IMG/VR virus record: IMGVR_UViG_2061766007_000865 | Length of the DNA: 59,745 nucleotides | Reading direction: 5' to 3' (one strand) | From: an uncultured virus (IMG/VR IMGVR_UViG_2061766007_000865) | Lineage: Duplodnaviria; Heunggongvirae; Uroviricota; Caudoviricetes | In this document: positions 37,816-53,393 of the stretch, piece by piece | Position numbering within the stretch: the first letter of the stretch is position 1 | How the letters are laid out: each line of letters begins with the position of its first letter | Notes under the pieces: model-generated | What the model was told of the DNA's origin: nothing | Seen by the model: only the letters and a program-made list of their open reading frames with translations | Databases searched by the model: none | Position numbers and translations under genes: made by a program

Positions 37816-37951
37816 AGTGCGGTAGAGGAATCGAACCTCTGTTTACGGCTTGGAATGCATAATTTTTCAATAATACATCTGCTGTCTATTTCCTAACGGA
37901 AACGTTAAAAAACTTTTTAAACGTTGTCCTAAACCACTAGACGAACCGCAC
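37816..37951 (-). ncRNA. tRNA-like RNA whose anticodon arm is replaced by an ACAGCA-motif helix
   Basis: Acceptor GTGCGGT/ACCGCAC with normal D and T arms; insert contains GTTTCC-gtta-GGAAATAGACAGCAG. Confidence 0.7.
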
Positions 37952-38461
37952 ATGTGTAAATTAGCTGCTAGGGGCAAGCACGTTCTAACGGTTATCCCCT
38001 CTTAACTGAGTACGCCCATAGGTATTATTGCGCAATTATCTCCTATTGCTTTCTCTGCCCTGTGGTAGACCTTTATCAAATTACGTCCGCAACAGCTAAT
38101 TATATTGTTTGTGAACCTACCATTGCTGATAGTGGAGGTGGACTTGCAACCACCATCCCACCCTTTTTCCAAGGGCAGTATTTACGTTAAAGTACCCCAA
38201 ATCACTTTTTTGTTCCCTCACCCTTTAATCTGTCAATTTTTGCGTAATTCATAATTACTTATTCTATATTACTTGTTGCAGAGATAGGATTCGAACCTAT
38301 GACCTCCCTCGAATTACCAAGGGCAAGCTAANNNNNNNNNNNNNNNNNNNNNNNNNNNNNNNNNNNNNNNNAGTATACCTAGAACAAACCCCAATGGTGA
38401 CGAACTTCAAATGGACAACGGCCTATTGCCGATTTGCTCTGTCATCATCAAATGAATGTTG

Positions 38462-38534
38462 TGGACAAGATAGGATTCGAACCTATGACCTCTTGGTAAA
38501 ATCCAAGGCTCTGACCAACTAAGCTACAAGTCCA
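38462..38534 (-). tRNA. pseudo-tRNA (6-nt anticodon loop, mismatched acceptor)
   Basis: GGACTTGTAGCTTAGTTGG...CTTGG-ATTTTA-CCAAG...GGTTCGAATCC. Confidence 0.55.
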
Positions 38535-38899
38535 TTTAAAAAGTCAAAGGAACATCTAAGTTAATACTATATATTACCGTAGAATACGCTCAAACAGCTA
38601 CGTTTAAACCTCATTCATCACGCAGAGGCAATAATATACTTTCTATGTCTAGCTCTCTTTGACTATGGTGGGACCATAGGGATTCGAACCCTTTCCTTGG
38701 TGCTATTACGCCCTTCTATCAGATTTCCTACTACAACTATCTATTACGTAATTCAATAGAAGCCTCAGAAAACATAGTGTGCCATACCATTAACTCACAC
38801 AATAATCCCCATTTATTGGTAATGCAAAGATATAGAACTTATTTGAAAAAACCAAATACTTATCCCAATTATTAACATTAATTATAGGATGTTAACAAA

Positions 38900-39322
38900 C
38901 TACTCCTTATAGATGTGATATGTTTCATGGGTATAATAAGATTTATCCTTATCCTTTCCGCTATAGTCAATTAGATACCTATTCTTACCTAGTTTTTCTA
39001 CCCTGATAAGGACTTGCCTATATGTCTCAATGCCTCCATCGAAATAACTTTCAAAAGCAGAGAATGTCACAATACGTCTATGACTAGATAATGTGCGAAG
39101 CTTATAACAAGATATCCCACAGCCGCTTGGACACATATCCACATATAAACTATCACCAACAAAGGTGAACATTAATTCACCACTCTTGGAAATGTACCTA
39201 CCATCCAAGTTAAGGCCATAAGAGGCGGTAACTCCAAACGTCATAAACATTAAGACAAATAATACCCTAATTAATCTCATAAATCTAAAAATTATAAAGA
39301 TAGGTTTTCCTATATCCACCAT
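38900..39322 (-). CDS. hypothetical secreted protein
   Basis: Hydrophobic N-terminus; exact start uncertain. Confidence 0.55.
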   Translation of the reverse strand: MVDIGKPIFIIFRFMRLIRVLFVLMFMTFGVTASYGLNLDGRYISKSGELMFTFVGDSLYVDMCPSGCGISCYKLRTLSSHRRIVTFSAFESYFDGGIETYRQVLIRVEKLGKNRYLIDYSGKDKDKSYYTHETYHIYKE

Positions 39323-39613
39323 AAAGGTATCCTCTTAACCATCAAGGAACTAGAGCAAGGGGCTAATCCTCGCACCGCATTACTGCTTACCTGCCATTTC
39401 TTACGTGGCTTGCGCTGTCTCACCTATTTCAGCATCCACTATGGATGNNNNNNNNNNNNNNNNNNNNNNNNNNNNNNNNNNNNNTCTGACTAGGCACATT
39501 AACCATTTTTGCTAATCCCCAATGGGGCAGACAACCTCATTACTGCCATCCTCACATTTAGTCACCCCCCAAACATGAGTTTTATGCCATTATGACAAAG
39601 GAAAATGGTTGCG

Positions 39614-39699
39614 TGAGCGTAGTGGGATTCGAACCCACGTAGCCTTATTGCCATAATAGTTTTAGAGACTATCCCAATTGACCACTCTGGCATACGCTC
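39614..39699 (-). tRNA. amber suppressor tRNA (anticodon CUA) with long variable arm
   Basis: Acceptor GAGCGTA/TACGCTC-A; anticodon arm ATAGT-CT-CTA-AA-ACTAT; T arm GTGGG-TTCGAAT-CCCAC. Confidence 0.85.
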
Positions 39700-39702
39700 T
39701 TC

Positions 39703-40209
39703 TTATTCTAAAAGTTTTTTCTTATCATCGTATTTTGCTAGAATTCCCATAACCATCTTGGTTACGCCACTAGCCCCCTTCATAACGAGTTCATACATCT
39801 TCATAACCTCTTCTAGTTTAGTCTCATTGGACTTACCCTTTCCAAATAAGGTGTTCTTAGACTCTGAAATGATTGCCTCAAACGGTCTCTTGAAGCTGGG
39901 ACATTTGTCAATGAGTGGCTGACAATACTCCATGAACTCATTGAGTTCTTCATCCTTATTCTTACGCTTGCGAGGTTTCTTAGGCCAGTAATCGATAATC
40001 AAATCAAAATCATTGTCTATCATGATATTGGTCTTGTCAGTCTCATCCAACTCATTCATCACTTGCTCTTCAACAGTTGTTGGTGGTAAGTCTATTCCAT
40101 GCCATTTCTGAGCTGGAATCTCTACATAGTTATGTTCAATTGGAATACTCTTATGAACAATCCTACGGTCACTAGTAATTGCGTGAAATGTTATAATTGT
40201 TACAGCCAT
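39703..40209 (-). CDS. hypothetical protein
   Basis: 168-aa ORF. Confidence 0.65.
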   Translation of the reverse strand: MAVTIITFHAITSDRRIVHKSIPIEHNYVEIPAQKWHGIDLPPTTVEEQVMNELDETDKTNIMIDNDFDLIIDYWPKKPRKRKNKDEELNEFMEYCQPLIDKCPSFKRPFEAIISESKNTLFGKGKSNETKLEEVMKMYELVMKGASGVTKMVMGILAKYDDKKKLLE

Positions 40210-40551
40210 ATGCCCATATTGATTGTTTTACTTTATGAATATGCTATCACCTACACGATATGACTTATTTGTGTATAATTCATATTCATATACACCTCTT
40301 TTGTTTTGTATTTTAACTACCACATGATATTTTTTGCCATTGTTATTAAAGTAGNNNNNNNNNNNNNNNNNNNNNNNNNNNNNAGTTACGACTACATCAT
40401 CACAACTAACAAATCCCAATGCTGTGCATAGAATTACCATGAAACTATATAACACAAATTTCTTCATATTGATTACCATAAAATTAAATAATACAAATTT
40501 CTTCATATTGCAAAGATACGAAAAATAATTGAAATACTCAAATTATTTAAG

Positions 40552-40962: not shown

Positions 40963-40966
40963 AGCT

Positions 40967-41350
40967 TCAATATGACATTTTATTTGGTATAACGCCCCTC
41001 ACACCACCCCTAGGATTCTCACAATCACCATTATAGCGTGGTATGATGTGTATGTGACAATGCATGATGGTTTGCCCAGCAGCCTCTCCACAATTAGTGC
41101 CTATATTAAATCCATTTGGGTGATATTTGGCGCATAGTATTCTCTTAACAATACCAATTGTCACACCAAGAGATTCAAGCTCAAGAAAATTCAAATCAAA
41201 ATATGTCTCACAATGTCTCTTCGGTATTAATAATGTGTGACCCTCTGAAACTGGATATCCATCCAACATTGCAATCCAAGTTGAATCTTGATATATTATC
41301 CTAGATTTATCAATCTTCTCTTCTATATCACAAAATGTACAACCATCCAT
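40967..41350 (-). CDS. HIT family nucleotide hydrolase
   Basis: CTFC, PVSEGHTLLIPKRH, GFNIG.N.G.AAGQT and HCHIHIIPR. Confidence 0.92.
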   Translation of the reverse strand: MDGCTFCDIEEKIDKSRIIYQDSTWIAMLDGYPVSEGHTLLIPKRHCETYFDLNFLELESLGVTIGIVKRILCAKYHPNGFNIGTNCGEAAGQTIMHCHIHIIPRYNGDCENPRGGVRGVIPNKMSY

Positions 41351-41591
41351 AAAACCAAATCTTTTTCATATTGCAAAGATATAAAAAAATATGAAAATAA
41401 CCAAATTTTTCTTGTTAAAAAAAACAAAAAACGTCATAAGCCACNNNNNNNNNNACAGTGCCATAAGTTTGGTATTTACGCAACGCTAAAATTACCCAAA
41501 TGGCGGTACGTATGGATGAAATGTCTCGAACATTTTGTCAAGCCATTGCCGACTTTTTACGTAGCAACCGATGAACATCCATATATAAATA

Positions 41592-41742
41592 CAAAAGACT
41601 GAGAACATTGTCTTATTGTAGATGCCATTTCACAGTGGTTGGACACTGCTGTTCACACGCTACCTTACGATAGCNNNNNNNNNNNNNNNNNTGAAAACAA
41701 CCAAACACTTACTAGTTTAAACCTTTTTAGGTACAGCATCAT
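41592..41742 (-). ncRNA. 3' fragment of GOLLD-like large RNA (possibly the misplaced end of copy B)
   Basis: Near-identical to 44970-45130, with a compensatory change CAGTG/CACTG vs CAGAG/CTCTG; ends at an N-gap. Confidence 0.6.
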
Positions 41743-41758: not shown

Positions 41759-42058
41759 TTAGTCTTCGGTAACAACCTTCAACCTTTTGAATAGCTCTTC
41801 GTGTCCGAAAACTGCTAGAGCTGTTACTTTGAAATCGAGGTCAGGTTCTTTGAACTCTGTATACTCAACATCTAAGTTTTCTAGCCTTCTCCTCCACTTA
41901 GGTACATCAGCACTTAAGTAAATCAAATATTCATTTTGCCACTCTCTACTGTGAGGATGTTCTAGCATCCATTGCGCAACTGCATGACCACCTTGTACGC
42001 ATCCGTACACTAGTTTGAGCGACTTGTCAATCAAAACGTATAACTTTCTCTTCTCCAT
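41759..42058 (-). CDS. peptidyl-tRNA hydrolase type 2-like protein
   Basis: KLYVLIDKSL...QGGHAVAQW...EFKEPDL...TALA pattern. Confidence 0.6.
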   Translation of the reverse strand: MEKRKLYVLIDKSLKLVYGCVQGGHAVAQWMLEHPHSREWQNEYLIYLSADVPKWRRRLENLDVEYTEFKEPDLDFKVTALAVFGHEELFKRLKVVTED

Positions 42059-42435
42059 TACTCTTCTGTTGGGTCTGCATACTTGTTATACACCTTGATT
42101 ACTGCGTTCTTGAATGCTGGGATAACATAACTCTCGGTCATGTCACCACCGCTTACACCCCAACGACCACTGTGCAACATCTTGTAACAACGGTTTCTAA
42201 CCTCATCCTCAAGATATGCATCACGGTCTGCACCCTCGATACGATGCTTAAAAATGTAGTAAGCTACATAGTCAGAATGGTCTTTATAAGTCTCTGACTT
42301 AATGAATTCCTTAAACTTAAGATACTGTTCTCTAGTGGTTTCCTTGTCTGTAAAAATTTTCTTTGCCATATTAATATATTCTTTAATTTGTTTGTTATTA
42401 ACTAATGATTTTAACTTTCTCACTACTTTTCCCAT
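42058..42435 (-). CDS. hypothetical protein (start may be MAKK at 42369; in frame with the upstream amber-interrupted leader)
   Basis: ORF translationally coupled to the Pth2-like gene. Confidence 0.65.
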   Translation of the reverse strand: MGKVVRKLKSLVNNKQIKEYINMAKKIFTDKETTREQYLKFKEFIKSETYKDHSDYVAYYIFKHRIEGADRDAYLEDEVRNRCYKMLHSGRWGVSGGDMTESYVIPAFKNAVIKVYNKYADPTEE

Positions 42436-42536
42436 CCAAATTAAGAATACATCAGGACCACGAATCAGTTTCAGCTACGTTGCATTTCCATTGTAACACA
42501 CAATTTTCATACTTTTTACTTTTTTATTAATATTAT

Positions 42537-42770
42537 GTTGTATTTCACTGTAATACTAATACCACATACAGCTTGTTCCTCCTAGTAAAGGAGATGTTTA
42601 TGGTTGTATTTCACTGTAATACTAATACCACATACAACTTTTTCTATTAGTTTATCTGTATTGTCATAGTTGTATTTCACTGTAATATACATACCACATA
42701 CAACTAAGAGGTTTTAATTATGCAGAGAAAGAACGTTGTATTTCACTGTAATATACATACCACATACAAC
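42537..42770 (-). CRISPR. CRISPR mini-array: 4 x 36-bp repeats, 3 x 30-bp spacers
   Basis: Repeats at 42537, 42603, 42669 and 42735 read GTTGTATTTCACTGTAATA(CTA/TAC)ATACCACATACA(G/A)C. Spacers are all 30 bp and unique. The degenerate repeat is the one distal to TnpB; orientation is inferred. Confidence 0.95.
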
Positions 42771-42976
42771 CTATCCAACATAAGTTGTTTATTATCAGTG
42801 ATTTGTGATGTGTATTACGTCCGAAAAATCACTTCTTCGGTGGCAGGATGACCACTTGTCACCCACTTTTTCTGTTTCATCCAAGCACTACTTTTTAGGT
42901 TTATTACTAAACGGTCATCCATAGGAGGCTAGTCCACAGACTTTACTTCCCCACTACACATGGGTAGGCACTATTT
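42771..42976 (-). ncRNA. omegaRNA/reRNA-like scaffold plus CRISPR leader
   Basis: Begins at the TnpB stop. 8-bp long-range pair GGATGACC/GGTCATCC (42913-42920 with 42846-42853), hairpins, and an IHF consensus TATCAGTGATTTG at 42793-42805. Confidence 0.6.
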
Positions 42977-44134
42977 TCACTGTTGTGCTTCAGTTAGAAT
43001 TCTATAACCCTCATTTTTGATATTAATTGCAGCGTTTATATCTCTATCAATACGTTCACCGCAATTAGGGCATATCCAATATCGTTCACTAAGTTTAAGG
43101 TTTTGCTTAACATATCCACAATGGCTACAAGTTTTAGAACTAGGAAAAAACCTATCAATCTCAATAACTTTAACACCATTCCAAGATGACTTATACTGTA
43201 ATTTAGTCTTAATGTCATTAAACGAAGACTCTTGTATACTTTTTGCCAAATGATGATTTTTTACCATCCCTTTGACATTTAAGTTTTCAAGGCATACAGC
43301 ACTAGTTCTGCTATCATAAGCAATGTCGTGTGTAACCTTGTCAATGAACGCTTTCTTCTTGTTATTTATATTATTTTCAAATTTAGCTAGCTTCAACCTA
43401 GCTTTTTCTTTATTCCTAGAACCATTTTTCTTCTTCGATAGCCTTCTGCAAAGCATTCTATATCTTCTGTCATCTTTGCTATTGATTCTCAGTGAATCAT
43501 ATTTAGTCCCATCACTAGTGATAATTGAATTTTTAACGCCTAAATCAATACCAACAACGGTATCATATGTGACTTCTCTTTCTTCAAGTGGCTCTGTTGT
43601 GTCTTTTACCAATATTGAGATAAAGTACTGGTTTGACTTGTTATATGATAATGTTGCTTGTTTAATTTCTCCATTAAATTTTCTATGAAGTCTAACATCT
43701 ATCAAACTTGCTAATTTTGGTATCTTCACCTTGTTCTCGCCCCAGAACACTTTAATTCCTTGGTATGTCGTATATGACCCACTGAAACTCCTTTTTTTGA
43801 AGACTGGCTCTCCAACATCGGTTTTAATGCCTTGCTTTCTAGTTTTACAAGCCTTAAAAAAATTACTGTAGGAAGCATCCAAATATGTAGATGTCCATAT
43901 TAGAGACTTTGCATCAACGCTTTTAAGCCACGATGTTTCATTGGCTTTCTTAAGAGAAGGTAAATCTCTAGCTACATTGTATTGACAGCTTAAGTGCTCT
44001 CCAGTCTCTTTAAAACACTTCTTAATTTTATCAAGAGCATAATTGTAAAACCATCTATTAGCACCTACGTTTTGCCTTATAAACTGTTTTTGCTCCTCAG
44101 TTGGATAAATTCTATACTTATATGCTCTTAACAT
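42977..44134 (-). CDS. tnpB: TnpB / compact Cas12f-like RNA-guided nuclease, CRISPR-adjacent
   Basis: HTH start RAYKYRIYPT; RuvC-I GIDLG, RuvC-II CLENL, Zn finger CSHCG/CPNCG and RuvC-III DRDINAA all intact. Confidence 0.92.
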   Translation of the reverse strand: MLRAYKYRIYPTEEQKQFIRQNVGANRWFYNYALDKIKKCFKETGEHLSCQYNVARDLPSLKKANETSWLKSVDAKSLIWTSTYLDASYSNFFKACKTRKQGIKTDVGEPVFKKRSFSGSYTTYQGIKVFWGENKVKIPKLASLIDVRLHRKFNGEIKQATLSYNKSNQYFISILVKDTTEPLEEREVTYDTVVGIDLGVKNSIITSDGTKYDSLRINSKDDRRYRMLCRRLSKKKNGSRNKEKARLKLAKFENNINNKKKAFIDKVTHDIAYDSRTSAVCLENLNVKGMVKNHHLAKSIQESSFNDIKTKLQYKSSWNGVKVIEIDRFFPSSKTCSHCGYVKQNLKLSERYWICPNCGERIDRDINAAINIKNEGYRILTEAQQ

Positions 44135-44161
44135 AATTATTTTTTTTCTAGTAAATAAAAA

Positions 44162-44218
44162 CGGAAGCTATTTTTTGTTCAGATTTGCAGTCTAAAAATA
44201 CATTGCTGTGAGCTTCCT
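44162..44218 (-). ncRNA. ACAGCA-motif small RNA with anticodon-arm mimic (GCA)
   Basis: Terminal stem GGAAGCT/AGCTTCC followed by CACAGCAA; internal TTAGA-CTGCAAA-TCTGA. Confidence 0.65.
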
Positions 44219-44223
44219 ATTTG

Positions 44224-44304
44224 TCGTGGGTGAGGGATTTGCACCCTCGAACCTTGCGGACTGGCTTATGAGACCAGCGAATTTGACTACTTTTCTAACC
44301 CACT
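44224..44304 (-). tRNA. tRNA-Met(CAT), initiator-like (1:72 mismatch), extra variable hairpin
   Basis: CTGGT-CT-CAT-AA-GCCAG; T loop TGCAAAT. Confidence 0.75.
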
Positions 44305-44312
44305 ATATAAAA

Positions 44313-44557
44313 AAACCTACGGATATACTTTATCAGGAATCTGGCTTTCTCTGCTGAAGACTTATTTTTACCCATCCACTCATGGGAACTTCACAGAGTG
44401 CTTCACACACCATTAGGTAGCATCGAGTGAGATAGTATTCCATACGCTAGTGGAACTATATAGACATTGTTACATACCTCAATCTACATTCTTCTTAGTG
44501 TGTACCCTTGCGACAAATGTACCCACGCTTGTATATCTACGCCTCTATCGTAGGTTT
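44313..44557 (-). ncRNA. unassigned structured RNA (~245 nt)
   Basis: Non-coding; closed by AAACCTACG/CGTAGGTTT with nested GATATAC/GTATATC. Confidence 0.45.
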
Positions 44558-44566
44558 ATATTATCA

Positions 44567-44653
44567 GGGAACTATAAATTTGATAGAATCGAACTATCTG
44601 TTTTCAATTTAGTCAATTAAAAAGTTATCCAAATGAAACTGCTGTAAGTTCCC
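44567..44653 (-). ncRNA. ACAGCA-motif small RNA with T-arm mimic
   Basis: GGGAACT/AGTTCCC followed by TACAGCAG; internal GATAG-TTCGATT-CTATC. Confidence 0.65.
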
Positions 44654-44834
44654 ACAAAAATCATATGGTCTCATATATAATTAAATATTAAGCCACAATA
44701 AAAAACGGTTGGTTATAAACATGACATTTTACAAACCCTAAAGGATTCAAACTTCCAACCCATAACACCTAGTAGCTATCTAGTGCCAAAGTTTAACGCT
44801 TTGTTTACTTGAAAAAGTGCCCCAAAACGGTACG

Positions 44835-44957
44835 CAGGGATAGCAGGATTCGAACCGACAACCTTTCGTAAACAGTCAAAGCATCAATCTGTTCCGAAGT
44901 CGAGATTGTTTATAGCTTAAATCGAAACGAATTACTCTACCGTTGAGCTATATCCCT
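44835..44957 (-). ncRNA. tRNA-like RNA with ~50-nt insert in place of the anticodon loop
   Basis: Acceptor AGGGATA/TATCCCT with D and T arms; insert contains CAATCTCGAC-TTCG-GAACAGATTG. Confidence 0.65.
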
Positions 44958-44969
44958 ATGTTAAAAATA

Positions 44970-45780
44970 CAAAAGACTGAGAACATTGTCTTATTGTAGA
45001 TGCCATTTCGCAGAGGTTGGACTCTGTTGTTCACACGCTACCTTACGATAGCCGTAGACACCATGCACGGAGGTTTTGCGAAAACAACCAAACACTTACT
45101 AGTTTAAACCTTTTTAGGTACAGCATCATAGATTTCAGTTCTTCGCCAAGCTCTTGCGGATTCACAGGATGCCTCCTGTTGACTCAGACGAGTACTTTTA
45201 CTATCTTGTTGGATTCCTTGCGAGTCCCCAACCCCTTCATATTGCAGAAGGATAAGTGCATTTTAGCTGCCTAGTGTCGCACACTTTTGCTACAGATTAA
45301 ATTCCTTCGAACGTCATAATTTCGATTTTAATGTCCAACGGTTATGGAAGACGAGGTGCGACCCATAGCATCCGTACCTTTTGAGTACAGCCCACTATAT
45401 CGCCTCCCTACAAAGACTCACCACAAGTCCAATTGCTATTATGCCCTATCAGCCTTACGGTTCTTGTGTCTTTCCACACAAGACTAGAACATAACTGAAC
45501 CCAACACGCCAACTGGTGACTATTGCATCGAGTTCCATACGACATCTATTGTGTTGCCACTCAACCAAAGACATTTAGCCCTTGGTAGCGTATGGCTATG
45601 GTGTTACCCACGCCATAAACCGTACCGTATGCTTTTCAGTGAAATACATAGGGTTGCCCCCACATATCTGCAACACCTAACCGCTAATTAGTGTCACATT
45701 TATCCCATCACTGGATTATCCTTATTGGCCACGAAAGCTGGCCATTCTCCTCATTTTCAGCCGAAACCTACGATGTGGGA
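44970..45780 (-). ncRNA. large structured ncRNA, GOLLD-like, copy A
   Basis: ~800 nt without a credible ORF inside the tRNA cluster; homologous to 46252-46990 with compensatory base changes. Confidence 0.65.
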
Positions 45781-46068
45781 GTTTGTTGGAAGAGTGGTAT
45801 TTGCAACCACGAAGCCTCCGAAGAGACACATCAAGCACGAACTTGATGCCCATTTGTCTACACCGTTATTGCTAACGTTTCTCCTCTGGTATCTTCCAAA
45901 TAAAAGGTTGGCTTGAACTTCCTTTAACATTACTGGTGTTAGTTAAACTATGGTCAACTCTCCACGAGATTCCTCACTACAAGGATTTTTACGTCCAATG
46001 GGATTTCCACCCACATCTAAGGTTTTTATTAACCAATAATTTTTGATATAAAAGGCTCGAAGCCAATG

Positions 46069-46149
46069 TTGCGGAAGTGGGATTTGCACCCACGAACCTT
46101 ACGGACTAGCTTATGAGACTAGTGAGATTGACTACTCCTCCATTCCGCT
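46069..46149 (-). tRNA. tRNA-Met(CAT), initiator-like, extra variable hairpin
   Basis: CTAGT-CT-CAT-AA-GCTAG; paralog of 44224-44304. Confidence 0.75.
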
Positions 46150-46159
46150 ATCTTAAAAT

Positions 46160-46222
46160 CGGAAACTTTTTCTTTCTGTCTTTTACCTTTTATTACTAAA
46201 TAGTAATTGCTGTAAGTTTCCT
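46160..46222 (-). ncRNA. ACAGCA-motif small RNA
   Basis: GGAAACT/AGTTTCC followed by TACAGCAA. Confidence 0.6.
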
Positions 46223-46251
46223 TAAGTTTTTTTTTAACTTTNNNNNNNNNN

Positions 46252-46990
46252 GGTACAGCATCATAGATTTCAGTTCTTCGCCAAGCTCTTGCGGATTCAT
46301 AGGATGCCTCCTATTAACTCAGACGAGTATTTTTACTCTCTTGTTGGATTCCTTGCAAGTCCCCAACCCCTTCATATTGCAGAAGGATAAGTGCATTTTA
46401 GCTGCCTAGTGTCGCACACTTTTGCTTTAAATTATATTTTATAATTTTAAAGACGACAGGACTCGAACCTGTAACATTCAGATTACGATTCTGATGCTCT
46501 GCCATTGAGCTACACTTCCCAACCAATGGAAGACGAGGTGCGACCCTTAGCATCCGTGCCTTTTGAGCACAGCCCACTAAATCGCCTTCCTATGCCAAGA
46601 CTACCACAGTCTTGTAGCACTAATACCCATTCTCAGCCTTACGGTTCTTAACGCTTATAACATTCATCATGCCTTTCACGTTAAGACAAATGTGTATTTG
46701 AACCCAACACGCCAACTGGTGATTATTGTATCAAGTTCCACAAGGTAATCTATTGTATCACTACTCAACCCAAGCTGTCAACCTAGGTAGCATTCCACAC
46801 GGTTTTACCTACCGAACAGTATACCGTACCTTGTGCTTTTCAGTGAAATGCCCTAGTTTCCTAGAACATCTGAGTCGGTTTAGTTGTCAATATCCGTCTC
46901 ATTTATCCCATCACTGGATTATCCTTCCATCTGGCCACGAAAGCTGGCCATTAAGCCTATACCTTTTGCAAGATACTTCCTCTTGGAAAC
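46252..46990 (-). ncRNA. large structured ncRNA, GOLLD-like, copy B (3' end cut by N-gap), with embedded tRNA
   Basis: Homologous to copy A; carries a tRNA-Thr(CGT)-like element at 46448-46519. Confidence 0.65.
46448..46519 (-). tRNA. tRNA-Thr(CGT)-like element embedded in the large RNA; weak acceptor stem
   Basis: TCAGA-AT-CGT-AA-TCTGA; GGTTCGAGTCC; acceptor mostly G-U pairs and a mismatch. Confidence 0.65.
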
Positions 46991-47238
46991 GGCTTAGTTG
47001 AACGAGGTGAATTTGAATCACCGAAGTCACCGAAGTGACACATTAAGCACGAACTTAATGCCCATTTGTCCACATCTGCCATTGCTGACAGTTCTCCTCT
47101 GGTATCGTTCAAAACTAGTTGGAAGAGGTGGATTTGCACACACCGAAGCTCTCGAAAGAGCACATCAATCACGAAATTGATGCCCATTTGTCTACATCAG
47201 CCTTACGACTGTTCTCCTCTGGTATCTTCCAAATAAAG

Positions 47239-47312
47239 TGGCGGTACACAAGAGTCGCACTTGGTGTTTCTAGCTTATGAGGCTAGCGTGTAATCTGTTT
47301 CACTCTACCGCT
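47239..47312 (-). tRNA. divergent tRNA-Met(CAT)-like
   Basis: CTAGC-CT-CAT-AA-GCTAG; atypical D and T arms. Confidence 0.55.
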
Positions 47313-47328
47313 ATGTTATATAATAAAA

Positions 47329-47397
47329 CGGAAACTGTTTTTCTAGCTGCTTCAAATTACAAGTTTGATACTATAAAATAGTTGCTGTAAGTTTCCT
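47329..47397 (-). ncRNA. ACAGCA-motif small RNA with anticodon-arm mimic (TGT)
   Basis: GGAAACT/AGTTTCC followed by TACAGCAA; internal TCAAA-CTTGTAA-TTTGA; just downstream of the promoter at 47418-47451. Confidence 0.65.
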
Positions 47398-47778
47398 CAT
47401 TTATTTCGTTTTAACTTTGCAAAGATATAGATAATTTTTTTAATTTCCAAATTTTTTAGGAACTTTTTTTCATTTACTTTGCAAATTCTTTCATCTTTGT
47501 CAATTCAGCTAAGTTAGCATCTATATCCATGTCCTTAATACTAAAGTCGAATGTCTCAGCATCAATCTTGGCTATGGCGTTTGACAAAAACTCTCTCGTT
47601 ACATTCTTAAGAGTCTCATAGTATTTCTTACCTACAATGGCTTGAGCCTCACGCTTCTCGTACCCNNNNNNNNNNNNNNNNNNNNNNNNNNNNNNNNNNN
47701 NNNNNNNNNNNNNNNNNNNNCTTACTCATAATATGTTGTTTTTGTTTAACAATCCAAATATTCTTAAAACGCATTAAG

Positions 47779-48139
47779 TGGACTTGGAGGGAGTTGAACC
47801 CTCGTCACAATTACCGACCCATAAAGGATTATACAAGCTTTTAGAAAATTGGTGAGTGGCAGATGCCACTACTCACCGCCGCCTCATTTTGAGAAAACAA
47901 GGAAAACAAAGGGGGGATGACTAAAGTCACCGATTCCACCATCTAGCACGAAGCTAGAAAAAAAGTGCTAGGATGTTCTGTTCCTAAGAGCCTAGCCTCT
48001 CGGCTCACGCTTACGCAGCTATAGCGTACTCGTAAGCAGGAGAATCTACGTTCTCTGCGTTTATTTTTTTTGCTATTTGAAGTGTATGCCCACTGCTTGT
48101 CCTTTACTAGACGCATAACGTTCTATACCATTCAAGCCC
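47779..48139 (-). ncRNA. ssrA: tmRNA copy 1
   Basis: Acceptor GGGCTTG/CAAGTCC-A with G3.U70; T arm GAGGG-TTCAACT-CCCTC; tag (A)AENVDSPAYEYAIAA*. Confidence 0.9.
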
Positions 48140-48149
48140 ATTATGTTTG

Positions 48150-48222
48150 TGTTGAAGAGGTGACTCGAACACCTAACCTACTGAATATCAGTCAGTTGCG
48201 CTACCCATTGCGCCACTCCAAC
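48150..48222 (-). tRNA. tRNA-Ile(GAT)
   Basis: ACTGA-CT-GAT-AT-TCAGT; cloverleaf. Confidence 0.85.
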
Positions 48223-48400
48223 ATGTTCGCACTCTGTAACCANNNNNNNNNNAAACCTAACTCCGTATACTGTAATCCACCAAGAAATCTTCTTGCAATA
48301 AAACTCAATCTTCTTTTTTTGCGGTCTTAACTTTCCTTGTATTACCGTTCTTCCTATCTCAAATAATCTATTCTTGATAAATGCTTTAGGNNNNNNNNNN

Positions 48401-48731
48401 AGATTGTACAAGCTTTAAAGTTTGGAGGGGTGTCAAAGCGCAAGAAACCGCTGGACACTCACTTTCCGCCACCGTGTTTTGTGAAAACAAGGAAAACTAG
48501 GGGGATGACTAGAGTCACCGATTCCACCAGTTAATCTCAATAGACTAACAAAAAGTTGCTAGGATGTTCTGTTCCTAAGTGCCTAGCCACTCGGCTCATG
48601 TTTACGCAGCCATTGCGTACTCATAAGCAGGAGAATCTACGTTCTCTGCGTTTATTTGTTTTTGCTATTTAAAGTATATGCCCACTGCTTGTCTCTTACC
48701 AAACGCATTGCTGTCTAATCCATTCAAGCCC
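48401..48731 (-). ncRNA. ssrA: tmRNA copy 2 (3' end in N-gap)
   Basis: 5' GGGCTTGAATGG; tag (A)AENVDSPAYEYAMAA*; homologous to copy 1. Confidence 0.85.
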
Positions 48732-48747
48732 ATTTGATAAATTTTTG

Positions 48748-48823
48748 TGTTGATGGTAGGACTTGAACCTACGAACCCCCACGGTATCAGCGTGGTGCTC
48801 TAAACCAACTGAGCTACACCAAC
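48748..48823 (-). tRNA. tRNA-Ile(GAT)
   Basis: CCACG-CT-GAT-AC-CGTGG; cloverleaf. Confidence 0.85.
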
Positions 48824-48826
48824 ATC

Positions 48827-49036
48827 TTATATAAATACAGTCTTACTGTTTTTTTCTAATTCCTCAAGCGTTCCATGATAAGTAAAACTATCACTATCAC
48901 TCTTAATGTTCACAAGAGCATTACCTTCGCCATCCTTATGCTGCCAGAACGTCTTGATTGTTGACTTCTTTAATCGTGCTATATTGCCACTTGGAAATGT
49001 TATCTCAAGATAGGCATCTGCATATTCATAATTCAT
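48827..49036 (-). CDS. small hypothetical protein
   Basis: 69-aa ORF between RNA genes. Confidence 0.55.
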   Translation of the reverse strand: MNYEYADAYLEITFPSGNIARLKKSTIKTFWQHKDGEGNALVNIKSDSDSFTYHGTLEELEKNSKTVFI

Positions 49037-49056
49037 ATATAATTATTTCAAAATTT

Positions 49057-49185
49057 CGGAAACGTTTTTAACATTTACGTTGCTCTACTACCTGAGCTAT
49101 AAGGAGCTTACACCCCTTAATGAGACTTGCACTCATGACACACGGCTTACAAGGCTTATTAAAATAACCACTGCTGTCTGTTTCC
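49057..49185 (-). ncRNA. YrlA-like RNA: ACAGCA stem plus circularly permuted tRNA domain
   Basis: GGAAACAGACAGCAG, then T arm ATGAG-TGCAAGT-CTCAT, loop-closed acceptor TAAGGGG/CTCCTTA, D arm GCTC-AGGTAGTA-GAGC, then GTTTCC. Confidence 0.7.
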
Positions 49186-49186
49186 T

Positions 49187-49275
49187 TGGTGCTTGCGGAG
49201 AGGATTTGAACCTTCTGTCTCAGTTCGGCTGTTGTCAGCCTCTGCATGCGTTTATACCTATTAAACTTCTCAAGC
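49187..49275 (-). ncRNA. tRNA-like RNA with encoded CCA and an extended arm lacking a 7-nt anticodon loop
   Basis: Acceptor GCTTGAG/CGCAAGC-ACCA; GGTTCAAATCC; arm ends GGCTG-ACAA-CAGCC. Confidence 0.55.
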
Positions 49276-49495
49276 ATATTCGCACTCTGTACCTATAATC
49301 ACTTACAAGCCATCGAGCACTTGTCTTGCACTAACGTTGTTAAGACCAATATACGCCATTCTTGACCTAAAGTATGGTTACGGATGGGAGTGTGCGTACT
49401 GATAACAAAAATAAATATACAAAAAACACCATGTTTAACTATTTTGAAGCCTACTTGAACGTTTAACCTTTCTTGCTCCCATTCAAGATTGGTTG

Positions 49496-51289: not shown

Positions 51290-51504
51290 AGTGTTCGATG
51301 CAAAATTATGTTCTTAACTACAACAATAGGCCATAGAATGGTCATCATTGACAAAATAAAACTAACCATACCCCTTTCCTTCGGCTCTTCATTTCCAAGA
51401 CTCTCAACGTAACTCTTCTCGTAGTATTTCGTGAACCAGTACATTGAGAGCACAACGCCAATGCAGAAATACGAATAAGTGGCGATAAATTCGATAACTG
51501 TCAT
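51286..51504 (-). CDS. small membrane protein
   Basis: Two hydrophobic segments; ILWP motif. Confidence 0.6.
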   Translation of the reverse strand: MTVIEFIATYSYFCIGVVLSMYWFTKYYEKSYVESLGNEEPKERGMVSFILSMMTILWPIVVVKNIILHRTL

Positions 51505-51526
51505 ACTTTTATTTTTTTAAGTTATG

Positions 51527-51612
51527 CTCGCAGGGTGCGATTCGAACACACGGTAGCGCAAAGCTACGGCAGTTTTGGAGACTGCTGGGTTAAACCACTC
51601 CCCCACCTGCGA
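51527..51612 (-). tRNA. tRNA with Trp anticodon (CCA) on a long-variable-arm body
   Basis: GCAGT-CT-CCA-AA-ACTGC; variable arm GTAGC-TTTGC-GCTAC; G73. Confidence 0.8.
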
Positions 51613-51850
51613 ATGTATATCTACATTTCTAGATATTCTTTTAACTCTTCTTTGCTAGTTGGTAGGTCATAATACCTAAACCATTTTCTAATTGCGTTAT
51701 CAGAGATTATGATAATGCATATCTGAATGGATAATTACAATGCTCACACGCAAACACTTCACCTTCCTCGTCGATTGCCTTAGTGATGTCAATCTCATTG
51801 TCTTGACCACACTTTACACATTTCACATATTTCATATAGTATTTTTTTAA

Positions 51851-52132
51851 TTAATCCAAGTACTCATGCTCAAGAAGGTATTTCTCACCTTTCTTTGTTG
51901 CACGATATTTCACTCTCACCACCTTTCCATACTTCTTTCTATATTCTTCTGTGCGGAATGGGTGTCTATCAATCACCTTCTCAACAATATATCCATCCTT
52001 GAGTAATGTTTCAATAGAGAAACTGATACCATAATTGGATATTGTCTTGAGATATGGTAATTTACTTATTTCACTATATGTCATTGGTGTAGCATGGATG
52101 CTAGCCAATATTTTCTCTGTTATTTCTAACAT
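51851..52132 (-). CDS. winged-helix-like small protein
   Basis: MTYSEI...L.KDGYI...Y.ATKKG..YL pattern. Confidence 0.55.
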   Translation of the reverse strand: MLEITEKILASIHATPMTYSEISKLPYLKTISNYGISFSIETLLKDGYIVEKVIDRHPFRTEEYRKKYGKVVRVKYRATKKGEKYLLEHEYLD

Positions 52133-52397
52133 GCTATTCGTAGATTGTATTATTGTGATGCAAAGATACGAAAAAAATCTGAGATAACCAAATTTTTTAA
52201 GATTTATTAATCATCATCACAAAGAAGCGTAGCGGCAGCAACCCATGAACCAAATGAGAAGAATATTGTATGNNNNNNNNNNNNNNNCTTATTGGAGGAT
52301 TGCTATTCATTTATGTACATTACCAATGCTACTACACAACCGACAAAATACGTATACCATAAGAAATTCATAACATTAGTTTTATAATCTGACGCTG

Positions 52398-52469
52398 AGC
52401 CTTATGCCAGAGTTGAACTGACAACTAGCACTTTACGAAAGTGCTGCTCTACCATTGAGCTAATAAGGC
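52398..52469 (-). tRNA. tRNA-Thr(CGT)
   Basis: GCACT-TT-CGT-AA-AGTGC. Confidence 0.85.
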
Positions 52470-52476
52470 AAATTAG

Positions 52477-52564
52477 AGCCTTCGGTTGGATTCGAACCAA
52501 CGGTGGATTACTAGTCCACTCTCGCTTACAAGACGAGTCGTTTAAACCACTCACGCACGAAGGC
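52477..52564 (-). tRNA. tRNA-Thr(TGT) with long variable arm
   Basis: CTCGT-CT-TGT-AA-GCGAG; variable arm GTGGA-CTAGTAA-TCCAC. Confidence 0.8.
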
Positions 52565-52589
52565 GATTTTATTTGCTAAATACTCACTC

Positions 52590-53106
52590 TTATTGATAAT
52601 CACTATCTTGTATGATACCATACTTGTGGAAATACCTCAGTGGTCTCCACTTATGTCCATTCACATAAAAGCCCCACTTGTGCCTTGGTCTACCCTCGAA
52701 CATCAACGTCCAAGCTCCACCTTTCGGTATGTCAAGGTAATGCTGCTGTTCAGCCTTGGAAAACCATATTGACTTGTTCATATGTAAGAAATGACCCCAA
52801 GAGTTGAATATACCCTCCACGTGACATCTTCTCTCATTCTTCCAATATGGTCTCTCGTCATAACCCTCGTTCACGTTGAAGTTGGGGTCTTGATTAGGAA
52901 CTATTGGAACGACGTTATCNNNNNNNNNNNNNNNNNNNNNNNNNNNNNNNNNNNNNNNNNNNNNNNNNNNNNNNNNNNNNNNNNNCTTAATCCAGTGATG
53001 AATTCTGATTGAGAATCCGAAGATGATGAATGTCCACCTTATGAGGTATGGGTCATTCTCATATCCTAGTTTCTCTTTCCACCTTACTTGGAACTTTCCA
53101 AACTTA
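52590..53106 (-). CDS. hypothetical protein, gapped (RW...FSIRIHHW; WTLMF.GRP...WGFY)
   Basis: Coherent reading frame across gaps; start in gap. Confidence 0.55.
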
Positions 53107-53261
53107 NNNNNNNNNNNNNNNNNNNNNNNNNNNNNNNNNNNNNNNNNNNNNNNNNNNNNNNNNNNNNNNNNNNNNNNNNNNNNNNNNNNNNNNNNNNNNN
53201 NNNNNNNNNNNNNNNNNNNNNNNNNNNNNNNNNNNNNNNACTGAGCTATGGAGGCAAGAAA

Positions 53262-53393
53262 GGGTACATAAAACCAACATTTCAACCCCTCCAGTTTATT
53301 TAATTCTCTTTGCGGAGGGGGTGGGAATCGAACCCACGTTACACAAATTGACAGTCTGTTTGAAGTGTAAATTTATACTTGCTGTGTGTACCC
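53262..53393 (-). ncRNA. YrlA-like RNA: ACAGCA stem plus permuted tRNA domain
   Basis: GGGTACA/TGTACCC followed by CACAGCAA; ACAGA-CTGTCAA-TTTGT; T arm GTGGG-TTCGATT-CCCAC; loop-closed CCCCTCC/GGAGGGG. Confidence 0.7.

What the first reader, a model, noticed from the sequence alone, without database searches (positions are those of the whole stretch)
37816..53393. Family of at least seven small RNAs with a covarying stem plus invariant ACAGCA, carrying tRNA-mimic parts (Y-RNA-like system)
Seen: elements at 37879-37904, 44162-44218, 44567-44653, 46160-46222, 47329-47397, 49057-49185 and 53262-53393 all have a 6-7 bp helix followed by NACAGCA(A/G). The helix sequence varies while pairing is kept (GGAAGCT/AGCTTCC, GGGAACT/AGTTCCC, GGAAACT/AGTTTCC, GGGTACA/TGTACCC). 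The cargo differs: lone anticodon stem-loops (GCA, TGT, GTC), a lone T arm, or a whole permuted tRNA. Known: bacterial Y RNAs such as YrlA join a Ro60-binding stem to a tRNA-like module, but their reported motif (GNCGAAN0-1G) is not ACAGCA. Inference: a distinct protein-docking handle displaying tRNA decoy modules, for example against anticodon nucleases or as adaptors for RNA repair/decay. No partner protein is visible in this window.
Basis: partly seen in the sequence, partly recalled or inferred. Interest (0 to 1): 0.85.

Follow-up and report, generated by a model that had tools for sequence, protein, structure and literature searches.

The report
Virus handle RNAs displaying tRNA mimics
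A giant rumen phage carries, among its tRNA genes, a family of small RNAs that share one short "handle" and each display a copied piece of a tRNA, and the handle matches one known until now only from small RNAs of social amoebae.

Summary
All seven sites exist, on the minus strand with the tRNA array. Six are free-standing elements. The seventh is the same handle closed by a tetraloop inside a tRNA-Gly-like gene.

Each element has:
- a 6-7 bp end-joining helix that starts with GG
- then N-ACAGCA-R
- a variable interior
- an A-rich run before the 3' strand
- a U-rich tail

In five related huge-phage records the 5' pattern gave 41 hits, all on one strand, with 0 in the reversed control. An exact 6-nt complement followed in 39 of 40 elements, against 4% of shuffles. 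Interiors are anticodon stem-loops with fast-changing anticodons, T arms, whole or back-to-front tRNAs and, in one relative, a 23S L1-stalk copy.

It is not a Y RNA system. No Ro60 gene was found (0 of 5 records), the Y RNA motif is absent and the YrlA score is below threshold.

The closest known kind is the Class I RNA of dictyostelid amoebae, which has the same design and the same word CUUACAGCAA. It scores below Rfam's cut-off.

Similar units lie in other phages and in a contig of a giant-virus bin. This scan had noted Class I-like handle RNAs before on other DNA (e1-5312764).

The function is inferred: a protein-docking handle presenting tRNA/rRNA baits. Expression is unproven.

The parts
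44163..44217 (-). Element A: handle GGAAGCT/AGCTTCC, C-ACAGCAA, lone anticodon stem-loop with loop CTGCAAA (GCA). It lies 5 nt after tRNA-Met 44223-44304.
   Evidence: model R1 54.7 bits, E 1.6e-9
44567..44653 (-). Element B: handle GGGAACT/AGTTCCC, T-ACAGCAG, cargo with a lone T arm.
   Evidence: R1 31.5 bits
46161..46221 (-). Element C: handle GGAAACT/AGTTTCC, T-ACAGCAA, plain hairpin cargo. It lies 11 nt before tRNA-Met 46068-46149.
   Evidence: R1 49.9 bits
47330..47396 (-). Element D: handle GGAAACT/AGTTTCC, T-ACAGCAA, anticodon stem-loop with loop CTTGTAA (TGT). It is followed by the tRNA at 47239-47312.
   Evidence: R1 72.1 bits, E 2e-13
47420..47427 (-). TAnnTTTG promoter-like box (TATCTTTG on the minus strand), 24 nt upstream of element D. 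The same box recurs before other units of the array.
   Evidence: That this box is the Bacteroidota -7 promoter element is recalled, not tested.
49058..49185 (-). Element E: handle GGAAAC/GTTTCC, AG-ACAGCAG. Cargo is a back-to-front tRNA: loop CTTGTAA, T arm, acceptor sealed by about 4 nt, D arm.
   Evidence: weak YrlA match 29.2 bits over the tRNA-like part; R1 20.9 bits
53262..53393 (-). Element F: handle GGGTACA/TGTACCC, C-ACAGCAA. Cargo is a back-to-front tRNA with a complete GTC anticodon arm, T arm and acceptor halves joined by a 20-nt spacer. The next tRNA starts 6 nt downstream and then runs into masked bases.
37815..37951 (-). tRNA-Gly(TCC)-like gene with a 63-nt insert on the 5' side of the anticodon loop. 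The insert holds the handle with its open end closed (GTTTCC-GTTA-GGAAAT-AG-ACAGCAG at 37879-37903).
   Evidence: ARAGORN with introns; regex: the only closed handle in the window and four related arrays

Best explanation
These are genes for a family of small structured RNAs embedded in the tRNA array of a huge rumen phage. Each RNA has two parts.

1. A constant handle. It consists of a 6-7 bp helix that joins the two ends and starts with G(G), then one or two bases and the single-stranded word ACAGCA(A/G). An A-rich run precedes the 3' strand and a U-rich tail follows it.
2. A swappable interior copied from RNAs of the translation machine. This can be an anticodon stem-loop, a T arm, or a whole, acceptor-less or back-to-front tRNA. 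In one relative it is the L1 stalk of 23S rRNA.

The handle has the same design and the same word (CUUACAGCAA) as the Class I RNAs of dictyostelid amoebae.

Proposed working:
- The units are transcribed with the tRNAs or from their own promoter.
- They are freed by the cuts that RNase P and RNase Z make at the neighbouring tRNAs.
- The handle is a docking site for a single-strand RNA-binding protein. In Dictyostelium that protein is the RRM protein Rnp1A.
- The handle presents the interior as bait: a decoy or sponge for factors that read anticodon loops, tRNA bodies or the L1 stalk. The most likely targets are host anticodon-cutting defence nucleases. The phage's RNA-repair set (RtcB, RNA ligase, CCA-adding enzyme) would work alongside.

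Shown: family, structure, strand, place, cargo identity, distribution.
Inferred: expression and processing, protein docking, bait function.
For: Family and helix:
- 41 strand-pure pattern hits with 0 control hits.
- An exact complement in 39 of 40 elements against 4% of shuffles.
- New stem variants found by model R1 (GGAATC, GGTAAC) still pair. All 41 R1 hits in 212 kb lie on the array strand.
- ACAGCA is nearly invariant. Only 3 units with a changed word were seen (GCAGCAA twice, CCAGCAC once).

Place:
- 22 of 42 elements have an ARAGORN tRNA within 30 nt, with gaps of 4-18 nt.
- 19 of 20 metagenome loci hold a tRNA hit.
- The tail at +2..+8 is 53% T, against 28-29% after 150 standard tRNAs. 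Base +1 is only G or T in 76 of 76 elements.

Cargo is under RNA-level selection:
- In the anticodon helix, 5 of 5 pairs show changes on both sides, and 0 of 500 shuffles reach the observed score.
- Loops keep 7 nt and U33 while the triplet changes between close relatives on an unchanged stem (GCA, GTA, CCA, GCT, TGT, GTC).
- The same handle carries an L1-stalk copy (LSU model positions 2131-2210, 53 bits, E 3e-15).
- Standard tRNAs with the same anticodons exist in the same arrays, so the units are not needed for decoding.

Class I likeness:
- The printed D. discoideum pattern is GTTGRCCTTACAGCAA...GTCAACTG.
- The Rfam consensus shows a 6-bp stem, CUUACAGCAA, an A-rich run and a UG tail.
- Class I RNAs bind Rnp1A directly, and a sponge role has been proposed for them (passages).

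Conflict context:
- RNA ligase, CCA-adding enzyme and a HIT protein are in the window.
- RtcB is in 4 of 5 related records.
- A 2026 preprint reports that Cas13b cuts tRNA anticodon loops and isolated anticodon stem-loops (passages).
Against: - No expression data bear on the small units.
- No partner protein was found. RRM_1 is in 0 of 5 records and TROVE in 0 of 5.
- The conserved neighbours o125 and o99 are not universal. o99 was in 2 and o125 in 1 of 5 other records.
- RtcB is missing from one 93%-complete phage with handles and from the giant-virus bin.
- Some cargos (C and others) resemble no tRNA part.
- The decoy idea has no direct test here. No host or host nuclease is known.
- Rfam's Class I model scores the units at only 17.6 and 20.4 bits against a cut-off of 41.5. 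The shared word could be convergence or chance.
Confidence: 0.45

Rival explanations
1. The handle is a maturation signal for split genes. It marks interrupted and back-to-front tRNA genes. An endonuclease removes the handle, and RtcB or the ATP-dependent RNA ligase joins the ends. For back-to-front genes this goes through a circle that RNase P and RNase Z reopen at the acceptor. The result is a working tRNA.
For: - One otherwise ordinary tRNA-Gly-like gene carries the closed handle exactly as an intron would, beside its anticodon loop.
- Back-to-front units keep anticodon loops, T arms and acceptor halves. In several the halves are joined by 17-21-nt AU-rich spacers, the length of normal inter-tRNA spacers.
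- RtcB is in 4 of 5 related records, close to the arrays. An RNA ligase is in the window.
Against: - Most units carry only an anticodon stem-loop, a T arm or non-tRNA hairpins, or an rRNA piece. Splicing cannot turn these into tRNAs.
- The splicing endonuclease family is in 0 of 5 records.
- Standard tRNAs with the same anticodons are present.
- The anticodon changes (GTC, TTT, GTG) on a nearly constant body and discriminator, which does not fit charged decoders.
- The anticodon stem of the permuted Thr/Gly type has only 3-4 of 5 pairs (from the sequences).
Confidence: 0.13
2. It is a true Y RNA system. The handle binds a Ro60/Rsr ring supplied by the host, and the tRNA-like part tethers a nuclease or repair enzyme, as in the Salmonella rsr-yrlBA-rtcBA operon.
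For: - Element E has the YrlA layout (T arm, sealed acceptor, D arm) and a weak YrlA match.
- RtcB co-occurs.
- The control genome Bacteroides thetaiotaomicron has a TROVE gene.
Against: - TROVE is in 0 of 5 phage records.
- The GNCGAAN0-1G motif that defines the Ro60 site is absent.
- The YrlA score is 29.2 against a cut-off of 69, and the handle part does not align.
- Most units have no tRNA-like body.
Confidence: 0.07
3. The units are riboregulators or cis elements. The anticodon-like loop would be a pre-formed seed for loop-loop or antisense pairing. Alternatively the whole hairpin with its U tail would act as a leader, attenuator or terminator for the gene behind it.
For: - The U-rich tail after the helix is specific to the units.
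- Some units sit just behind a promoter or in front of ORFs. The GGAAGCT unit precedes the o125-o99 pair in the window (with a TnpB gene inserted between) and in 5 related records.
Against: - Most units are followed within 6-18 nt by tRNA genes, which must be transcribed.
- The helix has only 2-4 G-C pairs and a 40-200-nt interior, which makes it a poor terminator.
- Three variable bases give no target specificity.
- No conserved complement of ACAGCAA was found on the array strand.
Confidence: 0.1
4. The units act as DNA. They would be inverted-repeat sites of a mobile element or recombinase, with tRNA fragments left by integration events.
For: - tRNA fragments that start in the anticodon loop or T loop recall integrase attachment sites (recalled).
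- A TnpB gene and an HNH endonuclease gene lie in the array.
Against: - The repeat arms differ freely in sequence between copies while pairing is kept.
- Orientation is strictly that of the tRNA genes.
- The anticodon helix covaries.
- TnpB is next to only one unit and is absent at the same place in four relatives.
Confidence: 0.03

Closest known systems
Class I RNAs of dictyostelid social amoebae (Rfam RF01414 Dicty_Class_I_RNA; Aspegren 2004; Kjellin 2021, PMC7919456)
   Same: - A short stem joins the 5' and 3' ends. Its sequence is free and its pairing is kept, and the first G is invariant.
- A conserved single-stranded word lies directly after the 5' strand. The same 10 letters, CUUACAGCAA, occur in the commonest phage variant.
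- An A-rich run precedes the 3' strand.
- The interior is variable.
- Members number many per genome and are 40-80 nt long.
   Different: - The hosts are viruses with tRNA arrays, not amoebae.
- There is no DUSE promoter.
- Interiors are recognisable tRNA or rRNA copies and can reach 220 nt.
- The stem is often 7 bp, with one base fewer before ACAGCAA.
- Rfam scores are 17.6-20.4 bits against a cut-off of 41.5.
- Kjellin et al. report no Class I RNA outside Dictyostelia. Viruses are not named among the genomes in the passages read.
YrlA / bacterial and phage Y RNAs (Rfam RF02553; Chen 2014, PMC4201824)
   Same: - Modular build: a terminal stem with a conserved word on its 5' strand, plus a tRNA-like module with T arm, sealed acceptor and D arm (element E).
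- Found in phages.
- RtcB is in the neighbourhood, as in Salmonella.
   Different: - No Ro60 gene (0 of 5 records).
- A different word.
- Many copies per genome, inside tRNA arrays.
- Most members lack the tRNA-like body.
- Anticodon loops are present, which YrlA lacks.
Circularly permuted tRNA genes of Cyanidioschyzon merolae and some archaea (recalled; not read here)
   Same: The 3' half comes before the 5' half, and a helix is formed by the outer flanks (E, F and relatives).
   Different: - No splicing endonuclease (0 of 5 records).
- The flank helix carries a conserved word that is also used with non-tRNA cargo.
- Ordinary genes for the same anticodons exist.
Handle-less back-to-front tRNA mimics in phage tRNA arrays, noted earlier in this scan (e1-5785234, e1-5889490, e1-6093666, e1-5345352)
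   Same: A sealed-acceptor tRNA mimic occupying a slot of a phage tRNA array.
   Different: Those had no handle and no anticodon. Here the handle is the constant part and anticodon loops are kept.

Membership tests
Dictyostelid Class I RNA (RF01414) | Short (6 bp) stem joining the 5' and 3' ends, with pairing kept through compensatory changes and the 5'-most G invariant | tested here: met
   G at position 1 in 76 of 76 elements. Exact 6-nt complement in 39 of 40 against 4.1% of shuffles. Stem variants GGAAAC, GGGAAC, GGAAGC, GGGTAC, GGATAC, GGAATC, GGTAAC, GATTAC, GTTTAC and GAAAAC all pair.
Dictyostelid Class I RNA (RF01414) | Conserved ~11-nt single-stranded word next to the 5' strand (CCTTACAGCAA in the printed D. 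discoideum pattern and the Rfam consensus) | tested here: met
   ACAGCA in 76 of 76 and a final A in 93% of the collected elements. That set was chosen by this word. CTTACAGCAA is the commonest form. Spacing is one base shorter than in Dictyostelium.
Dictyostelid Class I RNA (RF01414) | Variable interior; length 42-65 nt (some to 85) | tested here: inconclusive
   Units with short cargo are 51-78 nt. Units with tRNA or rRNA cargo are 87-220 nt.
Dictyostelid Class I RNA (RF01414) | Conserved ends: start AAG, end CUGU | tested here: inconclusive
   AA precedes the first G in 75-79% of elements. The base after the stem is G (53%) or T (47%). TGT follows the stem in 2 of 5 units of the giant-virus-bin contig and 2 of 4 units of record G162, where a third begins TGA. 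It is seldom seen in the rumen clade.
Dictyostelid Class I RNA (RF01414) | Rfam gathering score of 41.5 bits | tested here: not met
   Best scores are 17.6 bits (G003; the hit is exactly a handle unit) and 20.4 bits (L168). Only 1 of 20 loci was listed at E<=10. There was no hit on element D.
Dictyostelid Class I RNA (RF01414) | DUSE promoter about 60 nt upstream | tested here: not met
   Units lie 4-18 nt from tRNA genes or about 24 nt behind a TAnnTTTG box.
Dictyostelid Class I RNA (RF01414) | Bound by the RRM protein Rnp1A | not testable with these tools
   RRM_1 is in 0 of 5 phage records. The control genome B. thetaiotaomicron has RRM_1 genes.
YrlA / Y RNA (RF02553) | Encoded beside a Ro60/Rsr (TROVE) gene on the same strand | tested here: not met
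   TROVE in 0 of 5 related records, with positive controls. None in 67 window ORFs.
YrlA / Y RNA (RF02553) | GNCGAAN0-1G motif near the 5' end (Ro60 site) | tested here: not met
   The 5' strand carries (N)N-ACAGCAR instead. Motif definition.
YrlA / Y RNA (RF02553) | tRNA-like domain with T arm, sealed acceptor and D arm | tested here: met
   Met for element E (alignment) and for the permuted units of relatives. Not met for A, B, C and D.
YrlA / Y RNA (RF02553) | Rfam gathering score of 69 bits | tested here: not met
   29.2 bits for E only.
Permuted / intron-bearing tRNA genes spliced by protein enzymes | Splicing endonuclease (tRNA_int_endo) present | tested here: not met
   0 of 5 records, with 4 archaeal controls positive. 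The bulge-helix-bulge motif itself was not examined.
Permuted / intron-bearing tRNA genes spliced by protein enzymes | A ligase for the cut ends | tested here: met
   RtcB in 4 of 5 records. RNA_ligase family ORF at window 12567-13508.

The most novel reading that the evidence does not exclude
The handle (end-joining stem plus CUUACAGCAA) is one RNA adaptor shared by huge phages, giant viruses and dictyostelid amoebae. It docks on a partner common to these systems. Viruses use it to present interchangeable copies of tRNA anticodon arms, tRNA bodies and the ribosomal L1 stalk as baits against host tRNA-directed defences. The 'Dictyostelia-only' Class I RNAs would then be relatives of this viral class, acquired from viruses or the reverse.
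Probability: 0.3. Interest if true: 0.9.

Novelty: new variant of a known kind. Interest (0 to 1): 0.8.

Why it matters
- Class I RNAs are abundant and affect development in Dictyostelium, but how they work is unknown. They were reported as confined to that group (passages of PMC7919456). A viral family with the same handle and readable interiors (anticodon loops, tRNA bodies, L1 stalk) gives a concrete hypothesis for the whole class: the handle docks and the interior is bait. It also gives bacterial systems in which to test that hypothesis.
- For phage biology it would add an RNA-based way of dealing with tRNA-directed host defences, beside spare tRNAs and RNA repair enzymes.
- The anticodon triplet changes fast on a fixed scaffold. 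This marks which tRNAs are contested.
- The family also explains part of the dark matter inside tRNA arrays of huge phages.

Tried and rejected
- **Second helix (P2).** A helix between the U-rich 5' and A-rich 3' spacers was not supported. The best run averaged 3.97 bp against 3.70 bp in shuffles.
- **Pairing partner for ACAGCAA.** TTGCTGT is not conserved on the array strand of the window or four relatives.
- **Expression.** Contigs of four rumen RNA libraries were laid on 44100-49300. They cover the GOLLD-like RNAs and the tmRNA deeply. They touch elements B, D and E only through a few low-depth contigs (depth 2.6-10). Contigs show neither ends nor strand, and DNA carry-over cannot be excluded, so there is no verdict.
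- **Whole genome.** None is held.
- **Named relatives.** No DNA match in GenBank phages. One 27% protein match to a 635-kb uncultured phage.
- **Cellular genomes.**
  - The commonest variant has 0 hits in one genome each of 185,579 species.
  - Model R1 gave 0 of 5 at E<0.2 and 1 of 151 Bacteroidales genomes at E<=0.01.
  - That one hit lies in what reads as a gene on the opposite strand, in a 3-kb locus with no tRNA, and is probably chance.
- **Partner genes.**
  - TROVE, tRNA_int_endo and RRM_1 were each in 0 of 5 records.
  - o125 and o99, which follow the GGAAGCT unit in the window and in 5 related records, are absent from most other handle-bearing records.
- **First IMG/VR scan.** The 14-mer was too short. 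Most of the 118 loci were chance.
- **Rows left out of alignment A1.**
  - Units over 80 nt.
  - The doubtful 46-nt hit in L149.
  - Nine loci: L174, L176, L184, L206, L192 and L213 look like chance hits; L175, L198 and L199 are probably real but have other cargo.
- **Giant-virus contig.** I could not place the handle-bearing contig within the bin. Two flanking ORFs gave no viral marker.

Full report
**Setting**

The window is part of a very large phage.
- All 23 tRNA/tmRNA genes found by ARAGORN lie on the minus strand between 38.4 and 58.5 kb. Rfam confirms 21 tRNAs and a tmRNA.
- The box TATCTTTG (TAnnTTTG on the minus strand) recurs before many units. I recall this as the Bacteroidota -7 promoter element.
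- DNA runs that hold the stretch are labelled bovine gut or rumen.
- The nearest relatives are IMG/VR contigs of 317 and 412 kb. Nothing similar is in GenBank phages.
- All elements of the finding must be read on the minus strand.

**The observation**

Read that way, the six free-standing elements have one plan:
- a 5' strand GG-R-W-R-C-(N)
- one or two bases
- ACAGCA-A/G
- an interior of 33-110 nt
- an A-rich run
- the exact complement of the 5' strand

The limits are A 44163-44217, B 44567-44653, C 46161-46221, D 47330-47396, E 49058-49185 and F 53262-53393.

The seventh site is different. At 37879-37903 the two strands of the same helix are joined by GTTA, followed by AG-ACAGCAG. This hairpin sits inside a tRNA-Gly(TCC)-like gene (37815-37951) as a 63-nt insert on the 5' side of the anticodon loop. 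It is the only closed handle in the window and four related arrays.

**Is it more than chance?**

- The word alone is not enriched (18 seen, 14.2 expected). The composite is.
- The 5'-only pattern GGRWRCNNACAGCAR was searched in five related records. It gave 7, 10, 10, 7 and 7 hits, all on one strand per record, none on the other strand and none for the reversed control.
- One of the 41 hits lies in the RNA-ligase gene and is probably chance.
- Of 40 elements defined by the 5' pattern alone, 30 have an exact 7-nt and 39 an exact 6-nt complement within 30-260 nt. Shuffled strands gave 0.8% and 4.1%.
- Model R1 was built from 50 short units. It found 41 matches at E<=1 in 212 kb, all on the array strand, including stems outside my pattern (GGAATC, GGTAAC) that also pair.
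- The word is nearly invariant. Only three units with a changed word were seen (GCAGCAA twice, CCAGCAC once).

**Flanks**

- The two bases before the helix are A in 75% and 79% of 76 elements.
- The base after the helix is G or T in 76 of 76.
- The next seven bases are 53% T, against 28-29% after 150 ordinary tRNAs of the same arrays.
- The five bases before the 3' strand are 57-84% A.
- A second helix between the U-rich and A-rich spacers is not supported.

**Place**

- The units occupy tRNA-like slots. 22 of 42 have an ARAGORN tRNA within 30 nt (9 upstream, 16 downstream), with gaps of 4-18 nt. This is a lower bound, because ARAGORN misses several odd tRNAs here.
- 19 of 20 metagenome loci with a unit hold a tRNA hit.
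- Others follow a promoter-like box. Element D lies 24 nt behind it, and several metagenome copies are placed the same way.
- Cuts by RNase P and RNase Z at the neighbouring tRNAs would therefore free the units with only a few extra bases. This step is inferred.

**The interior**

It is a module taken from translation RNAs.
- Lone anticodon stem-loops. The aligned loop column of the 50 short units reads CTGCAAA 11 times, CTTTTAA 6, CTTGTAA 5, CTGTAAA 3, and others.
- Lone T arms (B).
- Whole or acceptor-less tRNA cores.
- Back-to-front tRNAs with the acceptor sealed by about 4 nt (E type) or joined by 17-21-nt spacers (F type).
- Some plain hairpins (C).

The anticodon helix covaries at 5 of 5 pairs, and 0 of 500 shuffles reach the observed score. 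P1 in that alignment was selected for pairing and is not independent there.

Between close relatives the stem stays the same while the triplet changes: GCA, GTA, CCA, GCT, TGT, GTC. The loop keeps 7 nt and T at its second place.

F-type relatives carry GTC, TTT or GTG on similar bodies.

Ordinary tRNAs with the same anticodons are present in the same arrays.

In record G003 the same handle encloses an 80-nt copy of the 23S rRNA L1 stalk (LSU model positions 2131-2210, 53 bits, E 3e-15). A related unit in G002 has no Rfam match. The cargo is therefore not restricted to tRNA.

**Distribution**

- The commonest variant, with a 28-58-nt interior, occurs at 9 loci of IMG/VR. These include further contigs of 345 and 388 kb.
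- It occurs at 52 loci of metagenome contigs. together gave 46 distinct sequences, of which I judge 6 to be chance.
- It occurs in none of the genomes of 185,579 prokaryote species.
- Model R1 found nothing credible in 156 Bacteroidales genomes.
- A looser pattern is strand-biased in three more viral records: 0/6, 5/0 and 2/0.
- It is also strand-biased in a record that IMG/VR labels a giant-virus bin: 7/1, control 1/0. In a 3-kb stretch of that bin, five units (stems GGTAAC, GGAAAC, GATTAC, GTTTAC, GAAAAC) alternate with four tRNA genes. One unit carries a T arm.
- The bin has NCLDV capsid genes, but on other contigs. That this contig belongs to a giant virus is therefore unverified.

**Comparison with Y RNAs**

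Chen et al. 2014 (passages) define YrlA by a gene next to rsr, a GNCGAAN0-1G motif in the 5' strand and a tRNA-like domain.
- Only the last feature is met, and only by E-type units. YrlA scores 29.2 bits against 69, and the alignment covers the T arm, sealed acceptor and D arm but not the handle.
- TROVE is absent from 5 of 5 records, two of them 95-100% complete.
- The family works somewhat like a Y RNA (stem plus module). It is not a member.

**Comparison with Class I RNAs**

That led me to test them here.

Kjellin et al. 2021 (passages) describe them as follows:
- 42-65-nt RNAs with a 6-bp stem joining the ends
- free stem sequence with compensatory changes and an invariant first G
- a conserved 11-nt single-stranded motif next to the 5' strand
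- a variable interior
- ends AAG and CUGU
- direct binding by the RRM protein Rnp1A
- a possible sponge role
- no member outside Dictyostelia

I did not see their figures or supplements. The letters of the motif come from two other sources:
- the pattern printed by Mosig et al. 2006: GTTGRCCTTACAGCAA, gap, GTCAACTG
- the Rfam consensus: a 6-bp stem, CUUACAGCAA, an A-rich run before the 3' strand, then UG

The phage consensus is GGAAAC-TT-ACAGCAA ... A-rich ... GTTTCC-(G/T), preceded by AA. It shares the stem design, ten letters of the word, the A-run and part of the flanks.

Rfam's model nevertheless scores the units only at 17.6 and 20.4 bits against a cut-off of 41.5. Both hits coincide exactly with units, and there was no hit on D. 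The DUSE promoter does not apply.

I therefore file the family as a new viral variant of the Class I kind, not as a member by Rfam's rule.

**How it may work**

Shown: a constant handle under selection for pairing and for a single-stranded word. Its interiors are under selection to look like anticodon arms and other parts of translation RNAs. Their anticodons turn over fast and are redundant with real tRNAs.

Inferred: the handle docks a protein and the interior is bait.

The conflict context fits tRNA-directed defence:
- The window encodes an RNA ligase, a CCA-adding enzyme and a HIT protein.
- RtcB lies near the arrays in 4 of 5 close records and in one more distant phage. It is missing from another 93%-complete phage and from the giant-virus bin.
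- A PTH2-like hydrolase (o99) follows the GGAAGCT unit in the window and in 5 related records.
- A 2026 preprint reports that Cas13b cuts tRNA anticodon loops and isolated anticodon stem-loops (passages). I recall Cas13b as typical of Bacteroidota.
- Reviews list phage tRNAs that evade PARIS, Septu and retron nucleases (passages).

No partner was identified. RRM_1 is absent from the phages, though present in a Bacteroides control.

**The main rival**

The handle could instead be a maturation signal for interrupted and back-to-front tRNA genes.
- For: the intron-like insert in the tRNA-Gly-like gene, the spacer-like linkers and the ligases.
- Against: the many units whose cargo can never become a tRNA, and the absence of a splicing endonuclease.

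**What remains open**

- Whether the small units are expressed as discrete RNAs
- Their true ends
- Their partner
- Whether the likeness to Class I RNAs is descent, a shared partner or chance

Noticed in passing
window 44962-45900 and 46237-47230 (minus strand); fragment at 41584-41742: Two GOLLD-like large RNAs score below Rfam's cut-off (72.1 and 51.2 bits against 150; E 4e-17 and 7e-11). They share long repeats. A 3' fragment is duplicated at 41584-41742 (95-100% identity). Contigs of four rumen RNA libraries cover both copies at summed depths of hundreds to thousands.
   Followed up: partly
window 42977-44134 (minus) and 42536-42790: A 385-aa TnpB/Cas12f-like ORF (OrfB_IS605, Cas12f1-like TNB) lies next to four 36-nt direct repeats at 66-nt spacing, a CRISPR-like mini-array. 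The block sits between element A and the o125-o99 genes. It is absent at that place in related phages.
   Followed up: partly
L155:16871-16950 (record G003), inside the handle unit L155:16832-17051: An 80-nt copy of the 23S rRNA L1 stalk (LSU model positions 2131-2210, 53 bits) is displayed on the same handle. No function is known for such a mimic.
   Followed up: partly
window 41759-42058 and 42058-42435 (minus): A two-gene pair follows the GGAAGCT handle unit in the window and in 5 related records. o99 looks like a PTH2-type aminoacyl/peptidyl-tRNA hydrolase (phrog_3668 'hydrolase', E 1e-6; Atlas 0.96, with PTH2 on 18-29% of cluster members). o125 is unknown.
   Followed up: partly
window 44223-44304, 46068-46149, 51526-51612, 52476-52564, 57303-57393, 57615-57694, 58423-58513: tRNAs for Met, Trp, Thr, Asn, Val and Asp are 80-91 nt long with long variable arms, which is unusual for these identities. 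The two Met genes have a TGCAAAT T loop.
   Followed up: no
window 39613-39699 and 38461-38533: A CTA-anticodon (amber suppressor type) tRNA, and a tRNA whose anticodon ARAGORN calls as 'tt'. The odd tRNA recurs in G001 and G002. ORF lengths give no sign of stop-codon recoding in this window.
   Followed up: partly
window 47776-48139 and about 48400-48740: A tmRNA gene (68.8 bits) is followed by a second, divergent tmRNA-like copy that gets only weak matches (tmRNA_permuted, 32 bits).
   Followed up: no
window 44274-44621: A stretch between tRNA-Met and element B has no ORF and no Rfam match. RNA-library contigs cover it at summed depths up to about 330. It may be another structured RNA.
   Followed up: no
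window 7542-8048, 9851-11440, 30689-31171, 12567-13508, 15265-16880, 40967-41350: Genes for NADAR, NAPRTase and NUDIX (NAD salvage) plus an RNA ligase, a CCA-adding enzyme and a HIT protein. This is a counter-defence and RNA-repair toolkit upstream of the array.
   Followed up: no
window 45782-45862, 46994-47074, 47116-47196: Three copies of an 81-nt tRNA-like repeat (69-80% identity) precede the GOLLD-like RNAs. Neither ARAGORN nor Rfam calls them as tRNAs.
   Followed up: no
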